A DNA stretch of 39,382 nt from a virus (Duplodnaviria > Heunggongvirae > Uroviricota > Caudoviricetes): IMG/VR virus record IMGVR_UViG_2923296884_000001. One strand, given 5' to 3'. The notes beneath the pieces are model-generated. The model was not told the origin of the DNA. It did not search any database and worked only from the letters and a program-made list of their open reading frames with translations. Position 1 is the stretch's first letter; each line of letters opens with the position of its first letter. The position numbers and the translations under genes are program-made. Positions 3,501-39,382 of the stretch are shown here, piece after piece.

Positions 3501-4685
3501 ATGAGTGAAACTCGTTTTCATGGTGCCCGTGTTACGGAAAGTACCGACCTGGTAACAGCGATTAACGATGTTGATTCCAGCGTTATCGGTATCGTGGCAA
3601 CGGCGGATGATGCGGACGCGAAGCTGTTCCCGCTGAACAAGCCCACACTGCTGACCCGCGTCAATGACGTGCTGGGAAAATGCGGGACAACGGGGACGCT
3701 TTATCGTGCGCTTAAGGCCATCGCAGACCAGGTGAGCACAAAGGTGATCGTCGTTCGCGTGGCTGAACACAAAGAAGAAAACGGAAAGACGCAGGATCAA
3801 CTGGTTATCGGTGGTTCTGAATCTGACGGCAGCTATACGGGGATGTATGCGCTGCTTGTTGCAGAGCAGGATGAAAGCATCGGATACCGTCCGCGTATTC
3901 TGGCCGCGCCGGAGCTGGACACGGAGGCGGTGACAAAATCCCTGTGCGTGATTGCGGGTAAAGTGCGCGCGTTTGTGTATGCCACATGTCATGGTTGTAA
4001 CACGATGGCTGAGGCGATTACCTACCGCCAGAAATTCAACGAACGTGAGGTGATGCTCTTATGGCCTGACTTCATCGCCTACAACCCGAAAAGTGGCAAA
4101 AACGAAACGTTCCCCGCGCCTGCTTATGCGTGCGGCCTTCGTGCGTACATTGACCATGAGCAGGGCTGGCACAAATCGCTGTCCAACGTTCCGGTTAAAA
4201 ATGTGCTGGGGATGTCCAGGCATGTGTTCTGGTCGTTACAGGCCGAAGACAGTGATGCCAACAGCCTCAACAACAAAGAAATCACGACCATTATTCGTCG
4301 TAACGGGTTCCGCTTCTGGGGCAACCGCACACCGGAAACGAACGCCTACATCTTTGAGGTGTATACCCGAACCGCACAGGTGCTGGCTGATTCAATTGCG
4401 GAAGCGCAGTTTGAAACCATCGACAGTCCACTGACACCTGCGAACGTGAAGGATGTTATCAGCGCCATCAGAGCAAAACTGGATTCGCTGGTTACTGTCG
4501 GGAAACTGATTGGTGCGGAGTGCTGGTATGACGTGGTGGATAACAGCACCACGGGTTTACGTCAGGGGCGTGTGCGTATTCGCTACAAATATACGCCTGT
4601 TCCCCCGCTGGAAGACATGGAGCTTTACCAGTCGTTTACTGATGAATTCTTTGGTCCCGCATTTGCGGTGCTGGGAGGTGCCTGA
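3501..4685 (+). CDS. FI: tail sheath protein
   Basis: 394-aa ORF with sheath-protein features and P2 gpFI similarity; followed by the tube gene with ATGA overlap. Confidence 0.93.
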   Translation: MSETRFHGARVTESTDLVTAINDVDSSVIGIVATADDADAKLFPLNKPTLLTRVNDVLGKCGTTGTLYRALKAIADQVSTKVIVVRVAEHKEENGKTQDQLVIGGSESDGSYTGMYALLVAEQDESIGYRPRILAAPELDTEAVTKSLCVIAGKVRAFVYATCHGCNTMAEAITYRQKFNEREVMLLWPDFIAYNPKSGKNETFPAPAYACGLRAYIDHEQGWHKSLSNVPVKNVLGMSRHVFWSLQAEDSDANSLNNKEITTIIRRNGFRFWGNRTPETNAYIFEVYTRTAQVLADSIAEAQFETIDSPLTPANVKDVISAIRAKLDSLVTVGKLIGAECWYDVVDNSTTGLRQGRVRIRYKYTPVPPLEDMELYQSFTDEFFGPAFAVLGGA

Positions 4686-8591: not shown

Positions 8592-9086
8592 ATGGCCATG
8601 ATGATGATCTATGGCATGTTTGTTTTTGAGCTGCGCACATTGCCGCATCAGCAGTTACAGCAAAACAAAAGCTGGCGGCATGTGAAAAATGAACGCGTTA
8701 ATCGTTCAGCAAGCTGGCAGTATATCGGCGCAGGTGATGATCGCATCGTGCTTTCCGGCGTGCTTTATCCTGAAATTACAGGTGGCGAAGTGTCGCTTTC
8801 GTTGCTGACCACGCAGGCATATACAGGACGCCCCTGGCCTCTGATTGATGGTGTCGGGCAGATTTACGGCATGTATGTACTGACTGAAACGAATACGACC
8901 CGTTCCGAGTTTGATCGCTACGGTAAGGCGAAAAAGATAGAATTTTCACTGACTCTTGAACGCTGTGATGAGGATTTGCGGGAGCGCCTGCAATCCTCAT
9001 CGTTCAGTGATATGCTGTCCGGCTTCAAAGATAAGGTCACATCATCCCTTAACAGCGCGGCCAGCTCCGTTAAAGGGCTGTTTTGA
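8592..9086 (+). CDS. U: tail protein U
   Basis: 164-aa ORF immediately after T with similarity to P2 gpU (MFVFELRTLPHQ... vs P2 MFVFMRQTLPHQ...). Confidence 0.9.
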   Translation: MAMMMIYGMFVFELRTLPHQQLQQNKSWRHVKNERVNRSASWQYIGAGDDRIVLSGVLYPEITGGEVSLSLLTTQAYTGRPWPLIDGVGQIYGMYVLTETNTTRSEFDRYGKAKKIEFSLTLERCDEDLRERLQSSSFSDMLSGFKDKVTSSLNSAASSVKGLF

Positions 9087-27691: not shown

Positions 27692-28006
27692 TCAATCTCC
27701 TTTGGTACCAATGTTTACAGCCTGGTAAGCCTCTTTGAGCACCCAGTCAACAGCGTCTTTCCATGCTCCGGTTTCGACTGGCGGATTCTCACGCTTTACC
27801 TGTTCATAGAAACGCACCGCTCTAACCAGTCCATCTGACGGTTTTGCCTGTAGTGCAGCCTGAGCTATGCGGTATGCCTGGAGCATACGGGCGTCGTTGA
27901 TATCCATTCCGAACGGAATTTCTGATGATTGTGACTCTGCATCTTCAAGCCTGGCAATTTCTTTACGTAAGAAGTATTTCAACTCTTGTTTCTGTTTTCT
28001 GTTCAT
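27692..28006 (-). CDS. hypothetical protein (104 aa)
   Basis: ATG at 28006 overlaps the upstream stop (ATGA). Confidence 0.6.
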
Positions 28007-28335
28007 GCGTTTTTTTCCTTTTTGTCTGTCACTTCTTTCCTGATAATTTCATTGCACAAATCCACGCACTCATTGCAGATGTAAACAGACGGTCCGGCAA
28101 TCACCTTTGTGACTTCGTACTGGGATTTATTGCAGAAGCTGCAATAAACCGTCTTCTCGCCTGAAGTCCATGTTTTGCTGGTTTCGCCAGACATCAGTTG
28201 TTTGAGGTCTTTTTCACGACGAAGAACTATCTGGCCACATTCAGCTATTTTTTGGATGTTGACATTTTCTTCTTTCGCCAGCGCTTCCATCCGCTCAATC
28301 AGTCGCTGCGCTTTTTCTCTGTCAATGTGTTGCAT
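28003..28335 (-). CDS. small protein with a C-terminal ClpX-type C4 zinc finger
   Basis: C-terminus [36 protein letters not shown] closely matches the ClpX N-terminal zinc-binding domain (CSFCGK...[15 protein letters not shown]); strong SD AAGGGGGA. Confidence 0.7.
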
Positions 28336-28398
28336 TGTGTCCCCCTTGTTTATGCTCCCGGGTTAAAGTCATCAGGGCGGATGCGCCCTGATGTTGTG

Positions 28399-28710
28399 TT
28401 ATTCGGGAAATAACGCCCGGATATTTCCGGCCATCTGACTGGTTATCTGTGCGGCTGATACTGGCTGTGACGCGGGGCGTTCTGTCCTGGTTTGTGTCAT
28501 TGATAACGCCTCATCATCAGCCCATGCAGCCAGTCGGTAAGCCTCTGCCGGATTCATTTTCAGTAGTGCCAGCCCGGCCAGAAAAGCCACGCGTTGACCA
28601 CTTTTGCGGGCTTCTGGTGTAAGGCTGTCCAGCCAGGCGCATGCTTCGCCTTCGTTCTTGACGGCGGCGGGCTTCAGATAGAAACTTATCCGTCTGGTTG
28701 GTGTCGTCAT
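28399..28710 (-). CDS. parR: ParR-like partition adaptor (103 aa)
   Basis: ATG at 28710 four nt after the parM stop, SD AAGGAG; N-terminus ISFYLKPAAVKN...VAFLAGLALL resembles plasmid R1 ParR (IAFKLNPDVN...AALTAGLALY). Confidence 0.7.
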   Translation of the reverse strand: MTTPTRRISFYLKPAAVKNEGEACAWLDSLTPEARKSGQRVAFLAGLALLKMNPAEAYRLAAWADDEALSMTQTRTERPASQPVSAAQITSQMAGNIRALFPE

Positions 28711-28714
28711 TGGT

Positions 28715-29674
28715 TTACTCCTTGTCCATTGCGTACAGCCCATTAACCAGAGCAAACTGTGGCACCCCGTCCGCGATGAAAGTCGCATTAACTCCGCAGG
28801 CTTCGCGGATAGCGGGTGCCACAATCTCTGCCCCGCCACCGACAACCATCACCCGCCCGTAACCCGAAAAACCCGCCAGCGCGCGGATCACGCGTTGTTT
28901 CAGTGTTTCTTCCTTTTCACGAATAACCGCCATCAGGCTGGCGTAATGCGCGTCATTGTGGATGTGCTGGCGCAGCCAGGCTTCATCATGGCGATGTTCG
29001 ATAATGGTATTGGCGATGTGGTGACTGGTACGCATACCGTTAGTGGCCATCACCGACAGTACGGCATCGGCCATCAGGGAAACGCCTACGTGTGGATCGC
29101 AAAACACCTGGCTGATACCTGCCAGTTGTCCCTGAACCTTTGCCACATCCAGCGTGGTTCCGCCTAAATCCACAATCAGCAGGGATTCAAACGGACTCAT
29201 GTCAGCCAGTGCCTTAAAGCCAGCCGGAATGGATTCAGGCATAACCCGCACGTTACGGATAGTGAATGCTTCGCCGTTCTGGTACTCCACCGGGCGCATA
29301 ACGTTCGCTTTTTTGCGGTTGATGTTGGCCATGTCCGGCTGTGCGTTTGTGTCGAAATACTCGCTCAGTGGCAGGGTGACAACCACATCCACCTCCTGTG
29401 GCGTGATGCCTGATTTGACCAGCGCGTGATGAATGGCGATTACATTCACATCGCTGTACTGGTATTGCGTGTCGGTCGTCTGGACAAAGCGATCGCTAAC
29501 CGGATCAAAACCATAGCGCACGCCATCAAGCATGTAGTTCGCGGGCTGCATGCCACCGAACGGCGCAGACCATTCCGACTTGAAGCTGTTCGGGCTGATG
29601 GCGTTGCGGCGTTCGCCATTCTCAGTCCATGCCAGCTTGATGTTGGTGGAGCCGTCGTCGATACAAATTTTCAT
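28715..29674 (-). CDS. parM: ParM/StbA actin-like segregation ATPase
   Basis: 319 aa; MKICIDDGSTNIKLAW... with full-length similarity to plasmid R1 ParM (phosphate-1 motif DDGSTNIKL, VMPESIPAG, LIVDLGGTTLD, VVGGGAE). Confidence 0.9.
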   Translation of the reverse strand: MKICIDDGSTNIKLAWTENGERRNAISPNSFKSEWSAPFGGMQPANYMLDGVRYGFDPVSDRFVQTTDTQYQYSDVNVIAIHHALVKSGITPQEVDVVVTLPLSEYFDTNAQPDMANINRKKANVMRPVEYQNGEAFTIRNVRVMPESIPAGFKALADMSPFESLLIVDLGGTTLDVAKVQGQLAGISQVFCDPHVGVSLMADAVLSVMATNGMRTSHHIANTIIEHRHDEAWLRQHIHNDAHYASLMAVIREKEETLKQRVIRALAGFSGYGRVMVVGGGAEIVAPAIREACGVNATFIADGVPQFALVNGLYAMDKE

Positions 29675-33615: not shown

Positions 33616-34446
33616 TTACTTCACCGGAACAAACGGAACAGCGGTGTTACTGGTCATGTATTGCGGTAGCGTGCCGTTCCATTTGTTAATCGCTTCCAGC
33701 TCCATAACGCCGGGATTCTGGCGCAGAGCTTCACCGCGTAAACGAATGGCGTCGGCTTCAGCCTGGGCTTTTGTGCGAATGGCATCGGCTTGTCCGGCAG
33801 CTTCTGCGCGCAGCATGTTGGCTTCAGCTTCGCGTTGCTTGACTTCCTGTTCACGTTGCAGGGTTTTCTGGTTTGCCGTGACTTTGGCATTAATGCTGTC
33901 GATAACGGTTGGCGGGTATTCCGGCTTACCCACATAAGAGAGGCTCATTACCTGAATGCCGATAGGTGTCATTTCTGCCTGAATGTCTTTAAGTGCTGAA
34001 TCCAGCAGTTCAGACTTGCCACCGTCGATAAATTTATCGGTGGTCATTTTGCTGGCCAGTCGGTTGAGTGCGTCGGCGATCTTCTGGCGCAGGTCAGTGT
34101 CGGTAATGTCGTCCACGCCTTTGCGGTAGGTCTGAAACACCGTGGTAACTTTGGATGGATCAACTTTGTAGGCCACGCCGATGTGATAGCCGATGGTTGT
34201 GCCGTCACTCATCTGGAAGTTGAACGGCTCATCGTAAGTCTTCATTTGTTTGAAAGTCGGGAAGATGTAAACCTCTGTATTCCAGCCTGTCCAGTAGCGG
34301 CCAACGCCAACTACTTCGCCGACGCCTTTGTCGTCGCCCAGTTTGTTGACTTTGATTCCCACATTACCTGGCTCAACGCGATCGCAACCAACCAGCAGGA
34401 TGGCGGCAAAAAGCGGGAGAATCTGAAAGAGTTTGAATTTCTTCAT
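33616..34446 (-). CDS. SPFH/band-7 domain lipoprotein (276 aa)
   Basis: Signal peptide with lipobox LLVGC, then a region reading as an SPFH/band-7 domain, then a coiled-coil Ala/Glu/Gln-rich C-terminus; SD AAGGAA; overlaps the upstream gene (ATGA). Confidence 0.85.
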   Translation of the reverse strand: MKKFKLFQILPLFAAILLVGCDRVEPGNVGIKVNKLGDDKGVGEVVGVGRYWTGWNTEVYIFPTFKQMKTYDEPFNFQMSDGTTIGYHIGVAYKVDPSKVTTVFQTYRKGVDDITDTDLRQKIADALNRLASKMTTDKFIDGGKSELLDSALKDIQAEMTPIGIQVMSLSYVGKPEYPPTVIDSINAKVTANQKTLQREQEVKQREAEANMLRAEAAGQADAIRTKAQAEADAIRLRGEALRQNPGVMELEAINKWNGTLPQYMTSNTAVPFVPVK

Positions 34447-35084: not shown

Positions 35085-35495
35085 CTATGCGTTAAATACG
35101 GTGCACTGTGCGTCATCAATGAATGCGACTTGAGAGCGCTCTATCAGGCGGAGATTTGTCAGAATTTCTGATTCCCTTATGGGGTGAGGAGTGATCAGGT
35201 ATTTATCCTGTAACCCGGCGATAATGGTGTATCGCTGTAGCTCCGAGCCAATTGTGTAAATAAGGCGTCCGGTGTTAGACAAATCCAGTCCGGTGACGGG
35301 TTGTGTTCTGAGAACCGCCAGTTCAGCATCCTGTTTTGCGATAATTTCGGCTGCTTCTGCCGTGACTCTTGCGACTATCAGTGTGTGGGTTGCGACGTCC
35401 ATATGATTATTTGCTATGGCTTTTTTCGCTACTACGTTTTCTGTCTTTGAAATTTCTTTCAGTGCTCTGATGATACCTTCTTCTTTTGCGTGCAT
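35085..35495 (-). CDS. hypothetical protein (136 aa)
   Basis: ATG at 35495 with SD GGAG; first gene of the coupled block ending with the SPFH gene. Confidence 0.6.
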   Translation of the reverse strand: MHAKEEGIIRALKEISKTENVVAKKAIANNHMDVATHTLIVARVTAEAAEIIAKQDAELAVLRTQPVTGLDLSNTGRLIYTIGSELQRYTIIAGLQDKYLITPHPIRESEILTNLRLIERSQVAFIDDAQCTVFNA

Positions 35496-35560
35496 TTTTG
35501 TATCTCCGTTATTTGCGTGTGCGAATACCTCCGTTAATACGGATGGTTTTCTCGTTTTCT

Positions 35561-35701
35561 TATTTAATTTGATGTTTTATTTGTATCGTTATTCACCAGT
35601 GAAAAACGTTCAATCTTTTTTACTGAATGAATAATTCGCATAATTCCAATAGCGCAGGCCACCGAAATAATCAGAACAAGCCATGAGATAAATATACTCA
35701 T
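35561..35701 (-). CDS. small hydrophobic single-TM protein (46 aa; not in ORF track)
   Basis: ATG at 35701 overlaps the upstream stop (ATGA); translation MSIFISWLVLIISVACAIGIMRIIHSVKKIERFSLVNNDTNKTSN. Confidence 0.45.
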
Positions 35702-36240: not shown

Positions 36241-36591
36241 TTATAAATCAGCCTGTTTAATAAAACTTTGTCCGCGAAGCAGACGATCAACTGTGCGAAG
36301 TGCTTCGTACAATGTGAAATCCTGCCCGAACTGATTGTCGCCGTTGCTCAGTGCAAAAATGCGGTTTCCGGTAAATGGGTTGCGCTGGCATCTGTGAACC
36401 ACGATTCCTGCTTTTTCAATCAGCCAAGTGTGTTCACCAATTTGTTTTACTGGGTAGCCATCCGGCGTTGCGTGTGTTTCGCTCAGGCTGTAGCGAGAGT
36501 TGCTACGTGATGCACTGGTAGCGAAACGGTTAGCATGGCGTTCCGCACCGTTGCGGAAGCGCTGCTGTGAAGAATTGCGCTGTAGTTTCAT
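36241..36591 (-). CDS. hypothetical protein (116 aa)
   Basis: ORF with ATG at 36591; SD weak; first gene after the low-GC insert. Confidence 0.5.
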   Translation of the reverse strand: MKLQRNSSQQRFRNGAERHANRFATSASRSNSRYSLSETHATPDGYPVKQIGEHTWLIEKAGIVVHRCQRNPFTGNRIFALSNGDNQFGQDFTLYEALRTVDRLLRGQSFIKQADL

Positions 36592-36728
36592 ATTAAAACT
36601 CTGTACCTTCGGTAAGGTGTACTCGTGTCACCTTGTATTGATTTGTGGTATTTTTTTTGTGTGTCTAGGACTTGGACTGGCCGGTTCAGGTCCTGGCTTA
36701 TGTTTAATTAAATTGTTAAGAGGTTTTC

Positions 36729-36920
36729 ATGTCAGAAGATAAAAAAGTTGTTAATTTGTTGAGTGAACTTAGTGCTGCTCTGGATAACATTAACCCTCCC
36801 AGGGTAAAAACGACGGGTGATAAAGACGCATTAAACACAGAGATTCATATATTACTGGCGTTAGTAACTGACAAAATTCAGCGTAAATACCCACCTGTCA
36901 CACAACTGGTTGATTTTTAA
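36729..36920 (+). CDS. hypothetical small protein (63 aa), opposite strand to the early operon
   Basis: ATG at 36729 preceded by AAGAGG and an AT-rich promoter-like stretch; low GC; convergent with the 139-aa gene. Confidence 0.5.
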   Translation: MSEDKKVVNLLSELSAALDNINPPRVKTTGDKDALNTEIHILLALVTDKIQRKYPPVTQLVDF

Positions 36921-36926
36921 TTTGAT

Positions 36927-37349
36927 TTATGCCGGGCTGCTCCCGGCATCTTCTAGCTGCCATAATGTCTCGTCACCTGATAGAGCAAAACGAAATGAGT
37001 GAAGTATATCCCCCCGAGAGAAGCTCACGGCTACAGCTGCGGGAAAGTCAAATATAATCCCACCTTCATTTTTAAAACGATTACGCAATTGATAGGCTAT
37101 CGGTTTGATTTGTGCAGGAAGAGTATCTATATCTCTTCCATTGACAACAGAATCTTTGTTTTCAAGTACTGATTTAGCGATTAGATATAGATGCCAGTAA
37201 CTGGTTACAATTGTTACTCCTGTGATGTGTCGTAAATTAATTGCAATTCGTCCGTTATTATGTTTTTCCGCAAGGTATTTCAGGTTATCAATTAATGCTT
37301 GGTCATTTTTTGAAATAGTTATTGTGAAATCTGACGTGTTTGTTTTCAT
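36927..37349 (-). CDS. hypothetical protein (about 140 aa), low-GC insert
   Basis: Start refined to the ATG at 37349 (MKTNTSDF...), 4 nt after the cox-like stop, SD AGAGG; the longer ORF-track version overlaps cox-like. Confidence 0.55.
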   Translation of the reverse strand: MKTNTSDFTITISKNDQALIDNLKYLAEKHNNGRIAINLRHITGVTIVTSYWHLYLIAKSVLENKDSVVNGRDIDTLPAQIKPIAYQLRNRFKNEGGIIFDFPAAVAVSFSRGDILHSFRFALSGDETLWQLEDAGSSPA

Positions 37350-37353
37350 ACGA

Positions 37354-37875
37354 TTAGTTGCCTCTGTTGTTTCTGAGTTGGTCCAGTTTTGAGCTTCTGC
37401 CTGTATAAACTCGCTTACCGTTAATGGTCTGGCAGTCTTCTTTATTAGCTGGAGAGAACTTCCTTTTCTGGCGGTCATACGTCCAGTAACTTTTCCAGTT
37501 GTGCCATTCTGGGGGCTCGTGCTCTGGTAGCTCATCAGCCAACTTGTCCCACTCTTTGGCGTTAAACCACCATACTCCGTCTGAGTTTTCATCTTCCGGG
37601 TTTGTGCGCGTCTTGTGTCCCGGCATTTGACCGCGATGAATGGCTACGCGCAGTGCAGATTTTGTTAGCCCAATATATGCCGCGCCTTTTTCCAGAGAGC
37701 AAAGCCCGGCGATCGGACCATCCAGCCGCAAAGTCGCTCCTTTTTTGTAGGAACGCTTTTTCTTGTTTTCTTCGTGCTCGTCGTCGTTGGCGGCATCAAT
37801 GGATCCGCTGAGTGCGTTACTTTCCTGAAGTGGTTGGTGGTCAGATAACTCTTTATCGGCAATGAAGTCCCGCAT
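37354..37875 (-). CDS. Cox/Apl-like HTH regulator-excisionase with N- and C-terminal extensions (173 aa)
   Basis: Central segment AAYIGLTKSALRVAIHRGQMP resembles P2 Cox (AKLIGKSTGAVRRMIDKGKLP); first gene of the leftward early operon, divergent from C; ATG at 37875 with SD AAGAGGA. Confidence 0.65.
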   Translation of the reverse strand: MRDFIADKELSDHQPLQESNALSGSIDAANDDEHEENKKKRSYKKGATLRLDGPIAGLCSLEKGAAYIGLTKSALRVAIHRGQMPGHKTRTNPEDENSDGVWWFNAKEWDKLADELPEHEPPEWHNWKSYWTYDRQKRKFSPANKEDCQTINGKRVYTGRSSKLDQLRNNRGN

Positions 37876-37917
37876 TTGTTATCCTCTTGCGTTGGTGCGC
37901 TTGTCGCGCCTTGTGAT

Positions 37918-37937
37918 GGTTTGTTTTGGTTTGTTTT
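37918..37937. promoter_or_regulatory. tandem direct repeat GGTTTGTTTT x2 in the C/cox switch region; candidate operator
   Basis: Two adjacent 10-bp direct repeats in the 103-bp region between divergent cox-like and C starts. Confidence 0.4.
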
Positions 37938-37978
37938 CTTCACCCTGTGGTGAAGACCGAAAAGAGGATACTCATCGT

Positions 37979-38320
37979 ATGGTGAACATGTCAAGAGATT
38001 ACGCCAAAAAACTAAAGGCGATCAGAAATGCGGAAAAACTTACACAATCTCAGTTTTCGCAAGTAACGGGGGTTTCTGTAGGGACTATAGGAAATTATGA
38101 GTCTGGATATAAACCTGCGCGAATTGAGGTTGTAGAAAAAGTAATCCAAGTCGAGCGATTCGAAAAATACACTATGTGGATACTTCACGACAAAACATTT
38201 CCCGCTGCCGGGCAGGTTGCACCGGCTCTCTCTCTTGATGGCTCTATTCAGTCGGAGGGCGATCAGGTTTCAATCGGCATTACCCAAAAATCACCCCGAT
38301 CAGGCCGCAATGTTGGCTGA
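37979..38320 (+). CDS. C: immunity repressor C (HTH, XRE-like)
   Basis: About 113 aa from the ATG at 37979 (SD AAGAGGA); HTH segment LTQSQFSQVTGVSVGTIGNYESG; lies immediately before int on the same strand. Confidence 0.75.
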   Translation: MVNMSRDYAKKLKAIRNAEKLTQSQFSQVTGVSVGTIGNYESGYKPARIEVVEKVIQVERFEKYTMWILHDKTFPAAGQVAPALSLDGSIQSEGDQVSIGITQKSPRSGRNVG

Positions 38321-38389: not shown

Positions 38390-39382
38390 ATGTCGATTAA
38401 GCAACTCAAAGACGGACGTTATCAGGTCGATGTCAGACCGCAGGGGGCGGAAGGAAAGCGGATTCGAAAAATCTTTGCCCTGAAATCAAAGGCTCAGGAG
38501 TTTGAGAAGTATGTGTTACAGAACTTTCATGACAAGCCATGGCAGGCTAAGCCAGCTGATCAGCGGCGATTATCAGAGCTGCTTGATGCGTGGTGGATGC
38601 TTGATGGTCGTAATCAGGCTTACGGGGATAGCTACAGGGTTAGGCTAGGGAAGGTTGTTCGTGAAATGGGAGATCCTCGCGCCAGTCAGATGACGCGAAA
38701 ATTTATGCTTGAATATCGGTCAGAGAAATTACAGGCCGGATTAATGCCGTCCAGTATTAATCGTGACTTATGCGTACTGTCTACCATGTTCACGGTGCTG
38801 ATTGAAGCTGAGGTCTTTCACAACGCGAACCCTGTACGCGGTATACGAAAACTGAAAGTTCAGAACACAGAGATGGCCTTTCTTTCTGATGATGAGATTG
38901 AACGGCTTCTTGAGCGACTGGAGGGTGATGCGCGTCGTGTTGCCATTCTGTGTCTTTCTACTGGTGCCCGATGGAGTGAAGCATCGGAACTACGTGGAGA
39001 GCATATCGTTGGCAACCGGGTGACGTTCTTTAACACCAAAAACGGAAAATCCCGTTCGGTTCCTGTGGCGGATTCGGTCGTGCCTCTGATTAAAACCCGT
39101 CGAACGGGGTTATTGTATCAGGTTGATTATCTGAAGTTCCGGGAGATTCTTCAGGAGGTGAAACCGGATTTGCCGAAGGGGCAGGCTACGCATGTCATGC
39201 GTCATACATTTGCCACACACTTTATGATGAATGGCGGAAATATTGTTACGTTGCAACGAATCCTGGGGCACGCAACGATTCAGCAAACAATGACGTACGC
39301 TCATTTTTCGCCGGACTTCTTACAGGACGCGATCAACTTTAATCCGCTGGCTGAAAGTGTCCATAAACTGTCCATCGATTAG
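38390..39382 (+). CDS. int: tyrosine integrase (P2 Int family)
   Basis: Start refined to the ATG at 38390 (SD GGAGG); C-terminal catalytic region with ...HVMRHTFATHF...LGHATIQQTMTYAH; stop TAG at 39380-39382 is the last triplet of the window. Confidence 0.92.
   Translation: MSIKQLKDGRYQVDVRPQGAEGKRIRKIFALKSKAQEFEKYVLQNFHDKPWQAKPADQRRLSELLDAWWMLDGRNQAYGDSYRVRLGKVVREMGDPRASQMTRKFMLEYRSEKLQAGLMPSSINRDLCVLSTMFTVLIEAEVFHNANPVRGIRKLKVQNTEMAFLSDDEIERLLERLEGDARRVAILCLSTGARWSEASELRGEHIVGNRVTFFNTKNGKSRSVPVADSVVPLIKTRRTGLLYQVDYLKFREILQEVKPDLPKGQATHVMRHTFATHFMMNGGNIVTLQRILGHATIQQTMTYAHFSPDFLQDAINFNPLAESVHKLSID

What the first reader, a model, noticed from the sequence alone, without database searches (positions are those of the whole stretch)
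36592..37349. Low-GC two-gene insert (convergent 140-aa and 63-aa genes) interrupting the early operon after cox-like
This stretch is markedly more AT-rich than the rest of the prophage. It holds a minus-strand gene of about 140 aa and a convergent plus-strand 63-aa gene with its own AT-rich promoter-like region, meeting at a GC-rich stem-loop (36931-36950); the region upstream of the next early gene carries palindromes (ACCTT-cggt-AAGGT and others). The convergent small-gene layout could be a toxin-antitoxin or regulator pair or another exclusion determinant, and the stem-loop implies the downstream early genes need read-through or a second promoter.
Basis: partly seen in the sequence, partly recalled or inferred. 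Interest (0 to 1): 0.5.

Follow-up and report, generated by a model that had tools for sequence, protein, structure and literature searches.

The report
Orphan convergent gene pair behind cox
A 760-base AT-rich cassette just after the cox gene of a P2-family prophage carries two real, co-inherited genes that face each other and resemble nothing of known function; about 5% of complete E. coli genomes (ST131 strains and UTI89 among them) have it, but what it does could not be determined here.

Summary
Window 36592-37353 is 38.1% GC against 52.9% overall, the lowest stretch of that size in the window. It holds a 140-aa minus-strand gene (L, 36927-37349) and a convergent 63-aa plus-strand gene (S, 36729-36920), with a hairpin (36929-36949) at their 3' ends.

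The stretch fills a variable slot between cox and the first conserved early gene (DUF4761) of a P88-like P2-family prophage. Related prophages have the slot empty or filled with at least five other cargoes.

Both genes are real. Salmonella P2-like prophages carry the same pair at 27-40% identity, again directly behind cox or apl-like genes, again convergent with abutting 3' ends. dN/dS for S is 0.075.

Neither protein matches any Pfam, PHROG, NCBIfam, PADLOC, PDB or fold-library entry. L starts 4 nt after the cox stop and has no promoter of its own. S looks like a self-contained unit.

My best inference, at low confidence, is that S is made in the lysogen and L in lytic growth, and that S antagonises L. 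This would be an exclusion or addiction-like pair, not a canonical toxin-antitoxin operon.

The hairpin has no U-tract on the early-operon strand, so it is not a predicted block to the early operon.

The parts
36592..37353 (.). Whole variable-slot segment between the DUF4761 start codon and the cox stop codon; the L-S module proper is about 36665-37353
   Evidence: GC is 38.1% against 52.9% for the window. The segment is absent from P88. A relative with the same cox lacks exactly 36670-37356.
36927..37349 (-). Gene L, 140 aa, an early-operon accessory gene. Its ATG lies 4 nt after the cox stop (TAA TCGT ATG). No promoter of its own was found.
   Evidence: ORF. Annotated CDS. Homologues at 27-33% identity in Salmonella P2-like prophages at the same position. 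dN/dS is 0.31 between L024 and L026, binomial p = 7e-4. No promoter within cox.
36729..36920 (+). Gene S, 63 aa, convergent with L. Its stop codon lies 6 nt from the L stop codon. SD AAGAGG at 36718-36723.
   Evidence: ORF. Annotated CDS. Homologous 60-62-aa partners in Salmonella at 27-40% identity, with conserved M-x-E-D-x-K...LL and KYP motifs. dN/dS is 0.075 (17 synonymous, 6 non-synonymous changes; p = 3e-7).
36929..36949 (+). GC-rich hairpin (AUGCCGGG-CUGCU-CCCGGCAU) directly after the S stop codon and inside the last codons of L. Probably the 3' end or terminator of the S transcript.
   Evidence: Fold energy -13.7 (+) and -15.1 (-) kcal/mol. Hairpins of unrelated sequence sit at the same place in L011 (-20.1, z -4.2) and L024 (-19.5, z -3.6; U-rich tail on the S strand). 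No U-tract on the minus strand.
36665..36696 (+). Plus-strand-specific 14-pair hairpin with G-U pairs, upstream of S. Either a 5'-UTR stem of the S mRNA or a plus-strand insulator.
   Evidence: Energy -20.9 kcal/mol, z -4.5 on the + strand, against -7.8 on the - strand. Hairpins lie in the equivalent position upstream of S in L011 and L024.
36625..36654 (+). Candidate S promoter: GTGTCA, 18 nt, TGg-TATTTT (extended -10). Unproven.
   Evidence: My own PWM scan gives 9.5, against a background 95th percentile of 9.7. The same geometry (extended -10, 18-nt spacer, 67-74 nt before the ATG) is the best candidate in all the S-bearing loci scanned. It was not called by the consensus scan.
36605..36618 (.).
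   Evidence: Present. Fold -8.2 kcal/mol, z -1.6, not beyond chance. Conserved in L007.
37354..37875 (-). cox-like gene (173 aa), upstream flank of the slot
   Evidence: Pfam Phage_Cox 2e-7 and phrog_23196 6e-116.
36241..36591 (-). DUF4761 gene, the first conserved early gene downstream of the slot
   Evidence: Pfam DUF4761 8.5e-69. 92% identical to the P88 DNA.
37965..37994 (-). Early promoter Pe candidate (TTGACA-18-TATCCT), which would drive cox, L and the rest of the early operon
   Evidence: score 13.1.

Best explanation
Window 36592-37353 is an AT-rich accessory cassette. It occupies a variable slot between cox and the first conserved early gene of a P88-like (Xuanwuvirus) P2-family prophage.

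Shown: the cassette carries two real protein genes that are inherited as a unit. L (140 aa) is read in the early-operon direction, starts 4 nt after the cox stop codon and has no promoter of its own. It can therefore be made only when the early promoter Pe fires, that is, on infection or induction. S (63 aa) faces L. It has a strong Shine-Dalgarno sequence, a candidate extended -10 promoter, a plus-strand-specific hairpin upstream, and a 3' hairpin embedded in the last codons of L.

Inferred: S is transcribed in the lysogen while Pe is repressed. When Pe fires, head-on transcription and the short 3' antisense overlap silence S and L accumulates, so the two proteins belong to opposite phases of the phage life cycle.

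Further inferred, at low confidence: S is the cognate antagonist or immunity partner of L, and L is an early host- or competitor-directed effector. On this reading lysogens are protected from leaky or incoming L. That is an exclusion or addiction-like logic, not a canonical toxin-antitoxin operon.
For: Slot and cassette: P88 and L007 have no cargo in the slot. L004, L005, L006, L031, L037/L041 and L058 carry other cargo between cox and DUF4761. The indel relative to a relative with 99%-identical cox is precisely 687 bp. That relative keeps the last 4 nt (CTAG) of the module and has lost the cox TAA, so it is a secondary deletion.

Real genes and a real pair: exhaustive phmmer over 1.84 billion representatives found one distant L homologue (34% identity, E 2.7e-7). 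That homologue and further members lie directly behind cox or apl-like genes in Salmonella prophages. Each has a convergent 60-62-aa gene homologous to S, with 3' ends overlapping by 4 nt. L and S diverge in step: L 33/28/33% and S 40/27/44% across the three lineage pairs. There is purifying selection on both, with dN/dS 0.31 for L and 0.075 for S. In 268 of the 270 E. coli genomes with a match, at least 80% of the 762 bp is present, so L and S are essentially always found together.

Expression logic: the L ATG is 4 nt after the cox stop, and no promoter candidate lies inside cox. For S, an SD, a candidate extended -10 promoter at a conserved distance, and a hairpin upstream of the SD (a 5'-UTR hairpin if that candidate promoter is the real one) are found in the lineages examined. 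A hairpin follows the S stop codon in all three lineages despite unrelated sequences.

Cassette mobility: the Salmonella modules are bracketed by 31-36-nt direct repeats.
Against: There is no direct evidence for expression timing, for L-S binding, or for any phenotype.

The S promoter candidate is not significant on its own: it scores 9.5 against a background 95th percentile of 9.7 and is missed by the consensus scan. It also lies in the 73-nt segment that is shared with the module-free relative.

A more distant L clade (L006, L058, L031) is paired with unrelated convergent partners of 107, 78 and 183 aa, even where L is 77% identical. L therefore does not strictly need S, and linkage could be positional.

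Neither protein resembles a known toxin, immunity protein, nuclease or regulator. The AlphaFold models are poor (pLDDT 42 and 57), and the fold searches return only noise.
Confidence: 0.35

Rival explanations
1. The two genes are functionally independent. L is an ordinary dispensable early gene, for example an anti-defence or host-takeover factor made alongside Cox. S is a separate lysogenic-conversion moron with its own promoter and terminator. They travel together only because their 3' ends abut or overlap, which leaves no room for recombination between them.
For: In the second L clade the convergent partner is swapped freely: 78 aa against 183 aa at 77% L identity, and 172 + 107 aa in L006. 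This is the behaviour expected of a moron landing site just after L. S has the anatomy of a self-contained unit. L is neutral to acidic and soluble, like many small phage inhibitor proteins. Early-operon position fits the timing expected of anti-defence genes (timing argument in 10.1101/2024.10.15.618418).
Against: L-S linkage survives divergence to 27-40% identity. It also survives complete replacement of both flanks: different cox or apl types upstream, and DUF4761 against a 259-292-aa gene downstream. The whole L+S unit is bracketed by direct repeats in Salmonella, so it moves as one cassette.
Confidence: 0.3
2. The pair is a lysis-lysogeny tuning device, not an effector-immunity pair. The convergent S promoter, and transcripts antisense to L and cox, would damp early-operon expression or feed transcription towards C and int, with L as a regulator. 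The analogies are CII/pE in phage 186 and cII/OOP in lambda.
For: L sits exactly where cII sits in phage 186, directly after the cox/apl gene, and 186 has a convergent promoter (pE) there. S points towards C and int. The 3' hairpin has only a weak U-tail on the S strand in the window (AUCUUCU), so read-through is conceivable. Early transcripts must cross 335 untranslated nt antisense to S before reaching the replication genes.
Against: There is no similarity between L and 186 CII, Fil or Dhr, or P2 Orf78 or B. No HTH or any other DNA-binding family is detected. L is neutral to acidic. No motif is shared between the Pe/Pc switch region and the S upstream region. S is under strong purifying selection as a protein, which a purely transcriptional device would not require. 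P88 and other relatives manage without the module.
Confidence: 0.15
3. The pair is a canonical type II toxin-antitoxin module that stabilises the prophage.
For: The order of predicted secondary-structure elements in the L N-terminal region loosely recalls the Phd/YefM fold (model; the resemblance is from my own recollection of that fold).
Against: The genes are convergent, not a bicistronic operon. L has no lysogen-phase promoter. No toxin or antitoxin family matches in Pfam, NCBIfam or PADLOC. hhalign of the L profile against a Phd/YefM alignment gives probability 0.04%.
Confidence: 0.05
4. The ORFs are chance reading frames in AT-rich junk DNA and nothing here is functional.
For: There are no database families, and the E. 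coli copies are nearly identical, so on their own they carry little information.
Against: Protein-level conservation persists where synonymous sites are saturated (dS above 1.5). dN/dS is 0.075-0.31 with significant binomial tests. Gene order, orientation and SD sequences are conserved across E. coli and Salmonella.
Confidence: 0.02

Closest known systems
Phage morons: accessory transcription units inserted between conserved phage genes (reviewed in PMC3573123, which lists P2 moron positions 1 and 2)
   Same: Present in some close relatives and absent in others. Lower GC than the phage. Dispensable. The S unit looks self-contained, with an SD, a candidate promoter and a 3' hairpin.
   Different: Half of the cassette (L) has no promoter and is wired into the early operon, 4 nt after cox. 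The location, between cox and the early genes, is neither of the two classical P2 moron positions (A|Q and G|FI).
Defence hotspots of P2-like phages (Rousset et al. 2022, PMC9122126; PMC13586616)
   Same: A short locus between two conserved phage genes with high cargo turnover. At least seven different states were seen here. PMC13586616 reports that 8% of P2 defence systems lie somewhere between integrase and primase, an interval that includes this slot.
   Different: None of the cargo proteins tested from this slot matches a PADLOC model. The slot lies inside the Pe-driven early operon, so sense-strand cargo is repressed in the lysogen, the opposite of what a defence gene needs.
sieB-esc-sas of phages P22 and lambda: an exclusion gene inside an early operon, with a phage-encoded escape function and an antisense RNA (from my own knowledge, not checked here)
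   Same: A lysogen-phase function and an infection-phase counter-function encoded at one spot inside an early operon, with antisense transcription between them.
   Different: No sequence similarity was tested or expected. In sieB/esc the two products share one reading frame, whereas here there are two separate convergent genes. No exclusion phenotype is known for this pair.
Phage 186 cII/pE and lambda cII/OOP convergent arrangements
   Same: A gene immediately after the cox/apl (or cro) gene is faced by a convergent transcript (for 186).
   Different: L has no similarity to CII and no HTH was detected. The convergent unit here encodes a conserved protein and lies downstream of L, not upstream.
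Type II toxin-antitoxin modules
   Same: Two small, co-inherited genes on a mobile element.
   Different: Convergent, not an operon. No family match. The Phd/YefM resemblance was rejected by hhalign.

Membership tests
Phage moron | Present or absent among otherwise closely related phages | tested here: met
   Absent from P88 and L007, and replaced by other cargo in L004, L005, L006, L031, L037 and L058.
Phage moron | Base composition differs from the surrounding phage genome | tested here: met
   38.1% GC against 52.9%, the lowest 762-bp window. The Salmonella modules are 42-43% against 44-50% for their loci.
Phage moron | Own promoter and terminator, making it an autonomous transcription unit | tested here: inconclusive
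   S has a candidate extended -10 promoter (score 9.5, near the background 95th percentile) and a 3' hairpin with a weak U-tail. The consensus scan finds neither. L clearly has no promoter.
Phage moron | Expressed from the repressed prophage | not testable with these tools
   Needs RNA-seq or TSS mapping of a lysogen.
Type II toxin-antitoxin module | Two co-directional genes in one autoregulated operon | tested here: not met
   The genes are convergent, with stop codons 6 nt apart. In Salmonella they overlap by 4 nt.
Type II toxin-antitoxin module | Homology to a known toxin or antitoxin superfamily | tested here: not met
   No hits in Pfam, NCBIfam, PADLOC or PDB. hhalign against Phd/YefM gives probability 0.04%.
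Type II toxin-antitoxin module | One product inhibits growth and the other neutralises it | not testable with these tools
   Requires expression experiments.
Type I toxin-antitoxin (antisense RNA against a small hydrophobic toxin) | Small hydrophobic or membrane toxin peptide | tested here: not met
   Both proteins are soluble: GRAVY is -0.17 and -0.20, and no hydrophobic segment is evident on reading the sequences.
Type I toxin-antitoxin (antisense RNA against a small hydrophobic toxin) | Known antisense sRNA family | tested here: not met
   No Rfam match at E <= 1 over 36300-38100.
P2-like defence hotspot (Rousset et al. 2022) | Variable cargo between two conserved anchor genes | tested here: met
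   At least seven slot states between cox and DUF4761.
P2-like defence hotspot (Rousset et al. 2022) | Located at the described hotspots (A|Q old/tin, G|FI Z/fun, tail|CI) | tested here: not met
   The slot lies between cox and the early genes. The described positions are given in PMC3573123, PMC9122126 and 10.1101/2024.10.15.618418.
P2-like defence hotspot (Rousset et al. 2022) | Cargo includes recognisable defence systems | tested here: not met
   No PADLOC hit for 12 cargo proteins taken from six of the slot variants; the L031, L058 and 68-aa cargoes were scanned against Pfam and PHROGs only.
Phage 186 CII-type lysogeny-establishment factor | Gene directly after apl/cox in the early operon | tested here: met
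   L starts 4 nt after cox. For 186.
Phage 186 CII-type lysogeny-establishment factor | Sequence or HTH similarity to CII | tested here: not met
   The L profile against 186 CII gave no reportable score. No HTH family in Pfam.

The most novel reading that the evidence does not exclude
L and S define a new class of phase-separated phage conflict cassette. L would be a polymorphic early effector with a conserved core of about 125 aa and a variable C-terminal tail, wired to Pe. It would be paired with swappable, convergently transcribed partners expressed in the lysogen that act as its cognate immunity. Together they would mediate competition among P2-like phages, or between phage and host, at a previously unrecognised fourth variable slot in these phages.
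Probability: 0.2. Interest if true: 0.65.

Novelty: new member of a known kind. Interest (0 to 1): 0.4.

Why it matters
The cassette is found in 270 of 5,426 complete E. coli genomes, including pandemic ST131 strains (EC958, JJ1887) and the model uropathogen UTI89. Both of its proteins lack any family assignment, solved structure or published function.

The work here turns an anonymous AT-rich patch into a defined, testable unit: two genes, their boundaries, a natural deletion control strain, and diverged Salmonella orthologues. It also shows that the cox-proximal end of the P2-family early operon is a cargo slot with high turnover, distinct from the classical old/tin and Z/fun positions.

If the pair proves to be an effector-immunity or exclusion device, it would add a new architecture to phage-phage conflict systems, with one gene in the operon and its partner convergent. 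If it does not, it remains an ordinary pair of accessory genes.

Tried and rejected
1. Family searches for L, S and all alternative slot cargo against Pfam, PHROGs, NCBIfam and PADLOC gave nothing above noise. The only hit was DUF1408/phrog_5450 at E 0.02-0.04, below cut-off.

2. PDB sequence-profile searches with the L and S alignments gave nothing.

4. A recollected resemblance of the L N-terminal region to Phd/YefM was tested by hhalign and rejected at probability 0.04%.

5. An RHH-like N-terminal strand was considered and dropped, because the second L clade lacks it (alignment).

6. Similarity to 186 CII, Fil and Dhr and to P2 Orf78 and B: none.

7. Rfam: no RNA family.

8. C or Cox operator motifs near S: no shared 7-mer with the Pe/Pc switch region.

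9. The GTDB genome scan with degenerate patterns returned no confirmed locus. tblastn of the Salmonella L and of the L006 L against the phage collection found no match.

10. Literature search by protein accession found nothing. The 'phages' vB_EcoM-569R5 and 705R2 that carry the cassette are PHASTER-predicted prophages, not sequenced virions, so they do not prove the phage is viable.

11. I first read the 687-bp difference from L007 as an insertion. Comparing junctions with L037/L041 shows that L007 is more parsimoniously a deletion derivative.
Full report
CONTEXT. The right end of the window is the immunity and early region of a P2-family prophage. It holds the integrase (about 38390-39382, +), a C-type HTH repressor (37979-38320, +) and a divergent early promoter candidate (TTGACA-18-TATCCT, 37994-37965, minus strand). 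On the minus strand follow a 173-aa Cox-like protein (37354-37875; Pfam Phage_Cox 2e-7, phrog_23196 6e-116), then DUF4761 (36241-36591), a phrog_3800 protein and DUF4754, with GPA replication protein further on. The nearest named phage is P88 (Xuanwuvirus), and identical prophages sit next to dmsA in ST131 genomes.

OBSERVATION. The finding is accurate. Region 36592-37353 is 38.1% GC against 52.9% for the window. It is the lowest of all 762-bp windows, about 3.5 sd below the mean. It holds a 140-aa minus-strand ORF (called L here, 36927-37349) and a convergent 63-aa plus-strand ORF (called S here, 36729-36920). Their stop codons are 6 nt apart. An 8-bp GC-rich stem lies at 36929-36949, with energy -13.7 and -15.1 kcal/mol on the two strands and z of -1.8 and -2.4. 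The stem lies within the last six codons of L. The ACCTT-cggt-AAGGT palindrome (36605-36618) exists but is no better than shuffled sequence (z -1.6). The consensus scan finds no sigma-70 promoter for S.

IT IS A CASSETTE IN A VARIABLE SLOT. In phage P88, cox is followed 37 nt later by DUF4761. Among E. coli prophages with related cox genes, the same interval takes several other forms:
- empty (L007);
- one 64-aa gene (L004);
- a 136-aa gene plus an 87-aa gene (L005);
- three genes (L006);
- a 68-aa membrane protein, phrog_14475 (L037, L041);
- other two-gene sets (L058, L031).

In a sample of 80 IMG/VR loci anchored on DUF4761, the loci where my five Cox queries detected cox had cox-to-DUF4761 gaps of 37, 231, 336, 760-762, 945 and 1272 nt. 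None of the cargo proteins searched matches a family of known function in Pfam, PHROGs or PADLOC.

L007 has 99% identical cox and lacks exactly window 36670-36356's counterpart, that is, 36670-37356. Backbone relatives read GGCAAC-TAA-ACACACAAAAA across the empty junction. The window reads GGCAAC-TAA-[TCGT ATG L ... S ... GTCCTAG]-ACACACAAAAAAAA. L007 reads GGCAAC-CTAG-ACACACAAAAAA. L007 therefore keeps 4 nt of the module's distal end and has lost the cox stop codon, which gives it a 185-aa Cox. It is most simply a secondary deletion, and the module proper is about 36665-37353.

The cassette is present in 270 of 5,426 complete E. coli genomes, once per genome and always on the chromosome. Of these, 268 carry at least 80% of the 762 bp, so L and S are essentially always found together. 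Carriers include EC958, JJ1887 and UTI89.

BOTH GENES ARE REAL AND FORM A CONSERVED PAIR. Word-indexed searches of 5.8 billion proteins found only near-identical E. coli copies. An exhaustive phmmer search of 1.84 billion representatives found one true distant homologue of L (P0014, 138 aa, 34% identity, E 2.7e-7). A profile search then found a handful more; every hit that carries a source name is from E. coli or Salmonella enterica.

Each locus examined (L011/L012, L024, L025, L026/L027) is a P2-like prophage. In each, the L homologue lies in the early direction one to three genes after the cox or apl-like gene. In each it is followed by a convergent gene of 60-70 aa as called (60-62 aa in three lineages) whose 3' end overlaps L, by 4 nt in three of the four loci. 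Those small genes are homologous to S at 27-40% identity. The N-terminus M-x-E-D-x-K-(I/V)-(I/V)-x-L-L and a KYP motif are conserved.

L and S diverge in parallel across the three lineages. Between two Salmonella alleles the S gene shows 17 synonymous and 6 non-synonymous changes (dN/dS 0.075, p = 3e-7). L shows 19 and 23 (dN/dS 0.31, p = 7e-4). In Salmonella the whole L+S unit (765 or 707 bp) is bracketed by 31-36-nt direct repeats. Each repeat consists of a Shine-Dalgarno sequence plus the first seven codons. One allele (P0017) has the hybrid N-terminus expected from recombination between these repeats. The modules are also AT-shifted in Salmonella, at 42-43% against 44-50% for their loci.

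A WIDER L FAMILY WITH OTHER PARTNERS. Three further post-cox proteins (L006_131, L058_163, L031_202) share the L core of about 125 aa. Examples are L011 against L058 at 29% over 133 aa (E 8e-13), and the L profile against L006 at E 3e-7. Each of these is also followed by a convergent gene, but the partners (107, 78 and 183 aa) are unrelated to S and to each other, even though L058 and L031 are 77% identical. So 'L plus a convergent partner' is general, while 'L plus S' is specific to one clade.

EXPRESSION ANATOMY. The facts shown directly by the sequence are these:
- The L ATG lies 4 nt after the cox stop (AAC TAA TCGT ATG).
- Nothing promoter-like lies inside cox.
- S has a strong SD (AAGAGG, 5 nt before the ATG), and its Salmonella homologues also have SDs.
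- A hairpin immediately follows the S stop codon in all three S-bearing lineages despite unrelated sequences. In L011 it is -20.1 kcal/mol (z -4.2). In L024 it is -19.5 (z -3.6), with a U-rich tail on the S strand.
- A 14-pair hairpin at 36665-36696 is strong only on the plus strand (-20.9, z -4.5, against -7.8). Hairpins occupy the same position upstream of S in Salmonella.

Suggestive only: in every S-bearing locus scanned, the best PWM promoter candidate upstream of S is an extended -10 element with an 18-nt spacer, 67-74 nt before the ATG (window 36625-36654). The scores are 6.5-9.5 against a background 95th percentile of 9.7, so none is significant alone. This scan used my own approximate sigma-70 weight matrix.

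On the early-operon strand the 36929-36949 hairpin is followed by AUAAAUCAAAUUAAAA. It is therefore not a predicted intrinsic terminator for the early operon. Early transcripts do have to cross about 335 untranslated nt antisense to S before reaching DUF4761.

MOST LIKELY MECHANISM. These steps are inferred, not shown. L can only be made from Pe, so it is an early lytic-phase protein. S looks like an autonomous unit facing Pe, so it is the natural candidate for lysogen-phase expression. When Pe fires, head-on transcription and the short 3' complementarity would shut S off. The pair has been co-inherited through complete replacement of both flanks, and it moves as one repeat-bracketed cassette. 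I therefore favour a functional coupling in which S antagonises or provides immunity to L, an exclusion or addiction-like logic (confidence about 0.35).

The main rival is that L and S are independent accessory genes linked only by their abutting ends (0.3). It is supported by the free partner swapping in the second L clade. A lysis-lysogeny tuning role by analogy with 186 CII/pE is possible but lacks any supporting homology (0.15). A canonical type II TA is disfavoured by orientation, promoter logic and the absence of homology (0.05).

COMPARISON WITH WHAT IS KNOWN. The classical variable positions of P2-like phages are A|Q (old/tin), G|FI (Z/fun) and tail|CI (PMC3573123, PMC9122126, 10.1101/2024.10.15.618418). 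A 2026 survey notes that 8% of P2 defence systems lie somewhere between integrase and primase (PMC13586616). The slot between cox and the early genes, and the L/S family, are not described in any paper I could find. The kind of object, an accessory cassette or moron in a phage variable slot, is well known. The specific families and the architecture of one in-operon gene plus a convergent partner are new members of that kind.

VERDICT. Interest is moderate (0.4): a widespread, well-delimited, completely unannotated gene pair with a testable hypothesis, but no evidence yet of an unusual mechanism.

Noticed in passing
L007 (NZ_CM136152.1, 4490262-4490855); corresponds to window 36669|37357: A natural 687-bp deletion of the L-S module in strain PRO_A-1504-6M-A_ESBL. 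It removes the cox stop codon and extends Cox by 12 aa to 185 aa. This is a ready-made control strain.
   Followed up: yes
L011:7986-8021 and 8751-8786; L024:3744-3774 and 4451-4481: The Salmonella L-S modules are bracketed by 31-36-nt direct repeats made of a Shine-Dalgarno sequence plus the first seven codons (MKITTED / MKLTIED). One allele (P0017) has the hybrid N-terminus. This suggests cassette gain and loss by recombination at gene starts. No such repeats flank the E. coli copy.
   Followed up: partly
window 35400-35700: A second low-GC patch (34.5% GC) in the early operon. It holds a tiny hydrophobic ORF (35564-35701, minus strand), annotated as a 37-aa membrane or hypothetical protein in related records.
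   Followed up: no
window 28003-29674 (minus strand): The interval between the replication gene A and the head genes of this prophage (the classical A|Q hotspot, if the head genes lie where I assume; they were not searched) carries a ParM/StbA-like actin ATPase (28715-29674), a Plasmid_stab_B protein (28399-28845) and a ClpX-type zinc-finger protein (28003-28335). That is a plasmid-partition set, not a defence system.
   Followed up: partly
window 33616-34446 (minus strand): A 276-aa SPFH/Band 7 protein (Pfam 4e-31) is encoded inside the early operon, an unusual early-region cargo for a P2-like phage.
   Followed up: no
window 37354-37875: Cox here is 173 aa, nearly twice the size of P2 Cox (91 aa). 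Only residues 58-129 match the Phage_Cox model. An acidic N-terminal extension of about 55 aa has no assignment.
   Followed up: no
window 37917-37937: Tandem direct repeat TGGTTTGTTTT x2 between the cox start and the Pe candidate. It is probably an operator or Cox-box array of this immunity type. It has no counterpart near the S gene.
   Followed up: partly
window 36592-36926 (minus-strand RNA): Early transcripts cross about 335 untranslated nt antisense to S. In the left part of this stretch (about 36500-36800) the minus-strand RNA is C-rich relative to G (plus-strand GC skew +0.19 to +0.22). This is the kind of sequence on which Rho could load, so polarity on the downstream replication genes might exist through Rho and not through the hairpin.
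   Followed up: no
L037:2041-2247, L041, L049:1832-2038, L068: The commonest alternative occupant of the same slot is a 68-aa membrane protein (phrog_14475), read in the early direction and starting at ACACACAAAAATG directly after the cox stop.
   Followed up: partly
L011:7877-7990, L026:4876-4989: In the Salmonella prophages a conserved 37-aa hydrophobic peptide gene (MYDLKNLCIDILAIIAIACLSTVLMAATIKFIITYLF) sits immediately upstream of L. Its DNA is nearly identical between lineages whose L genes are only 33% identical.
   Followed up: no
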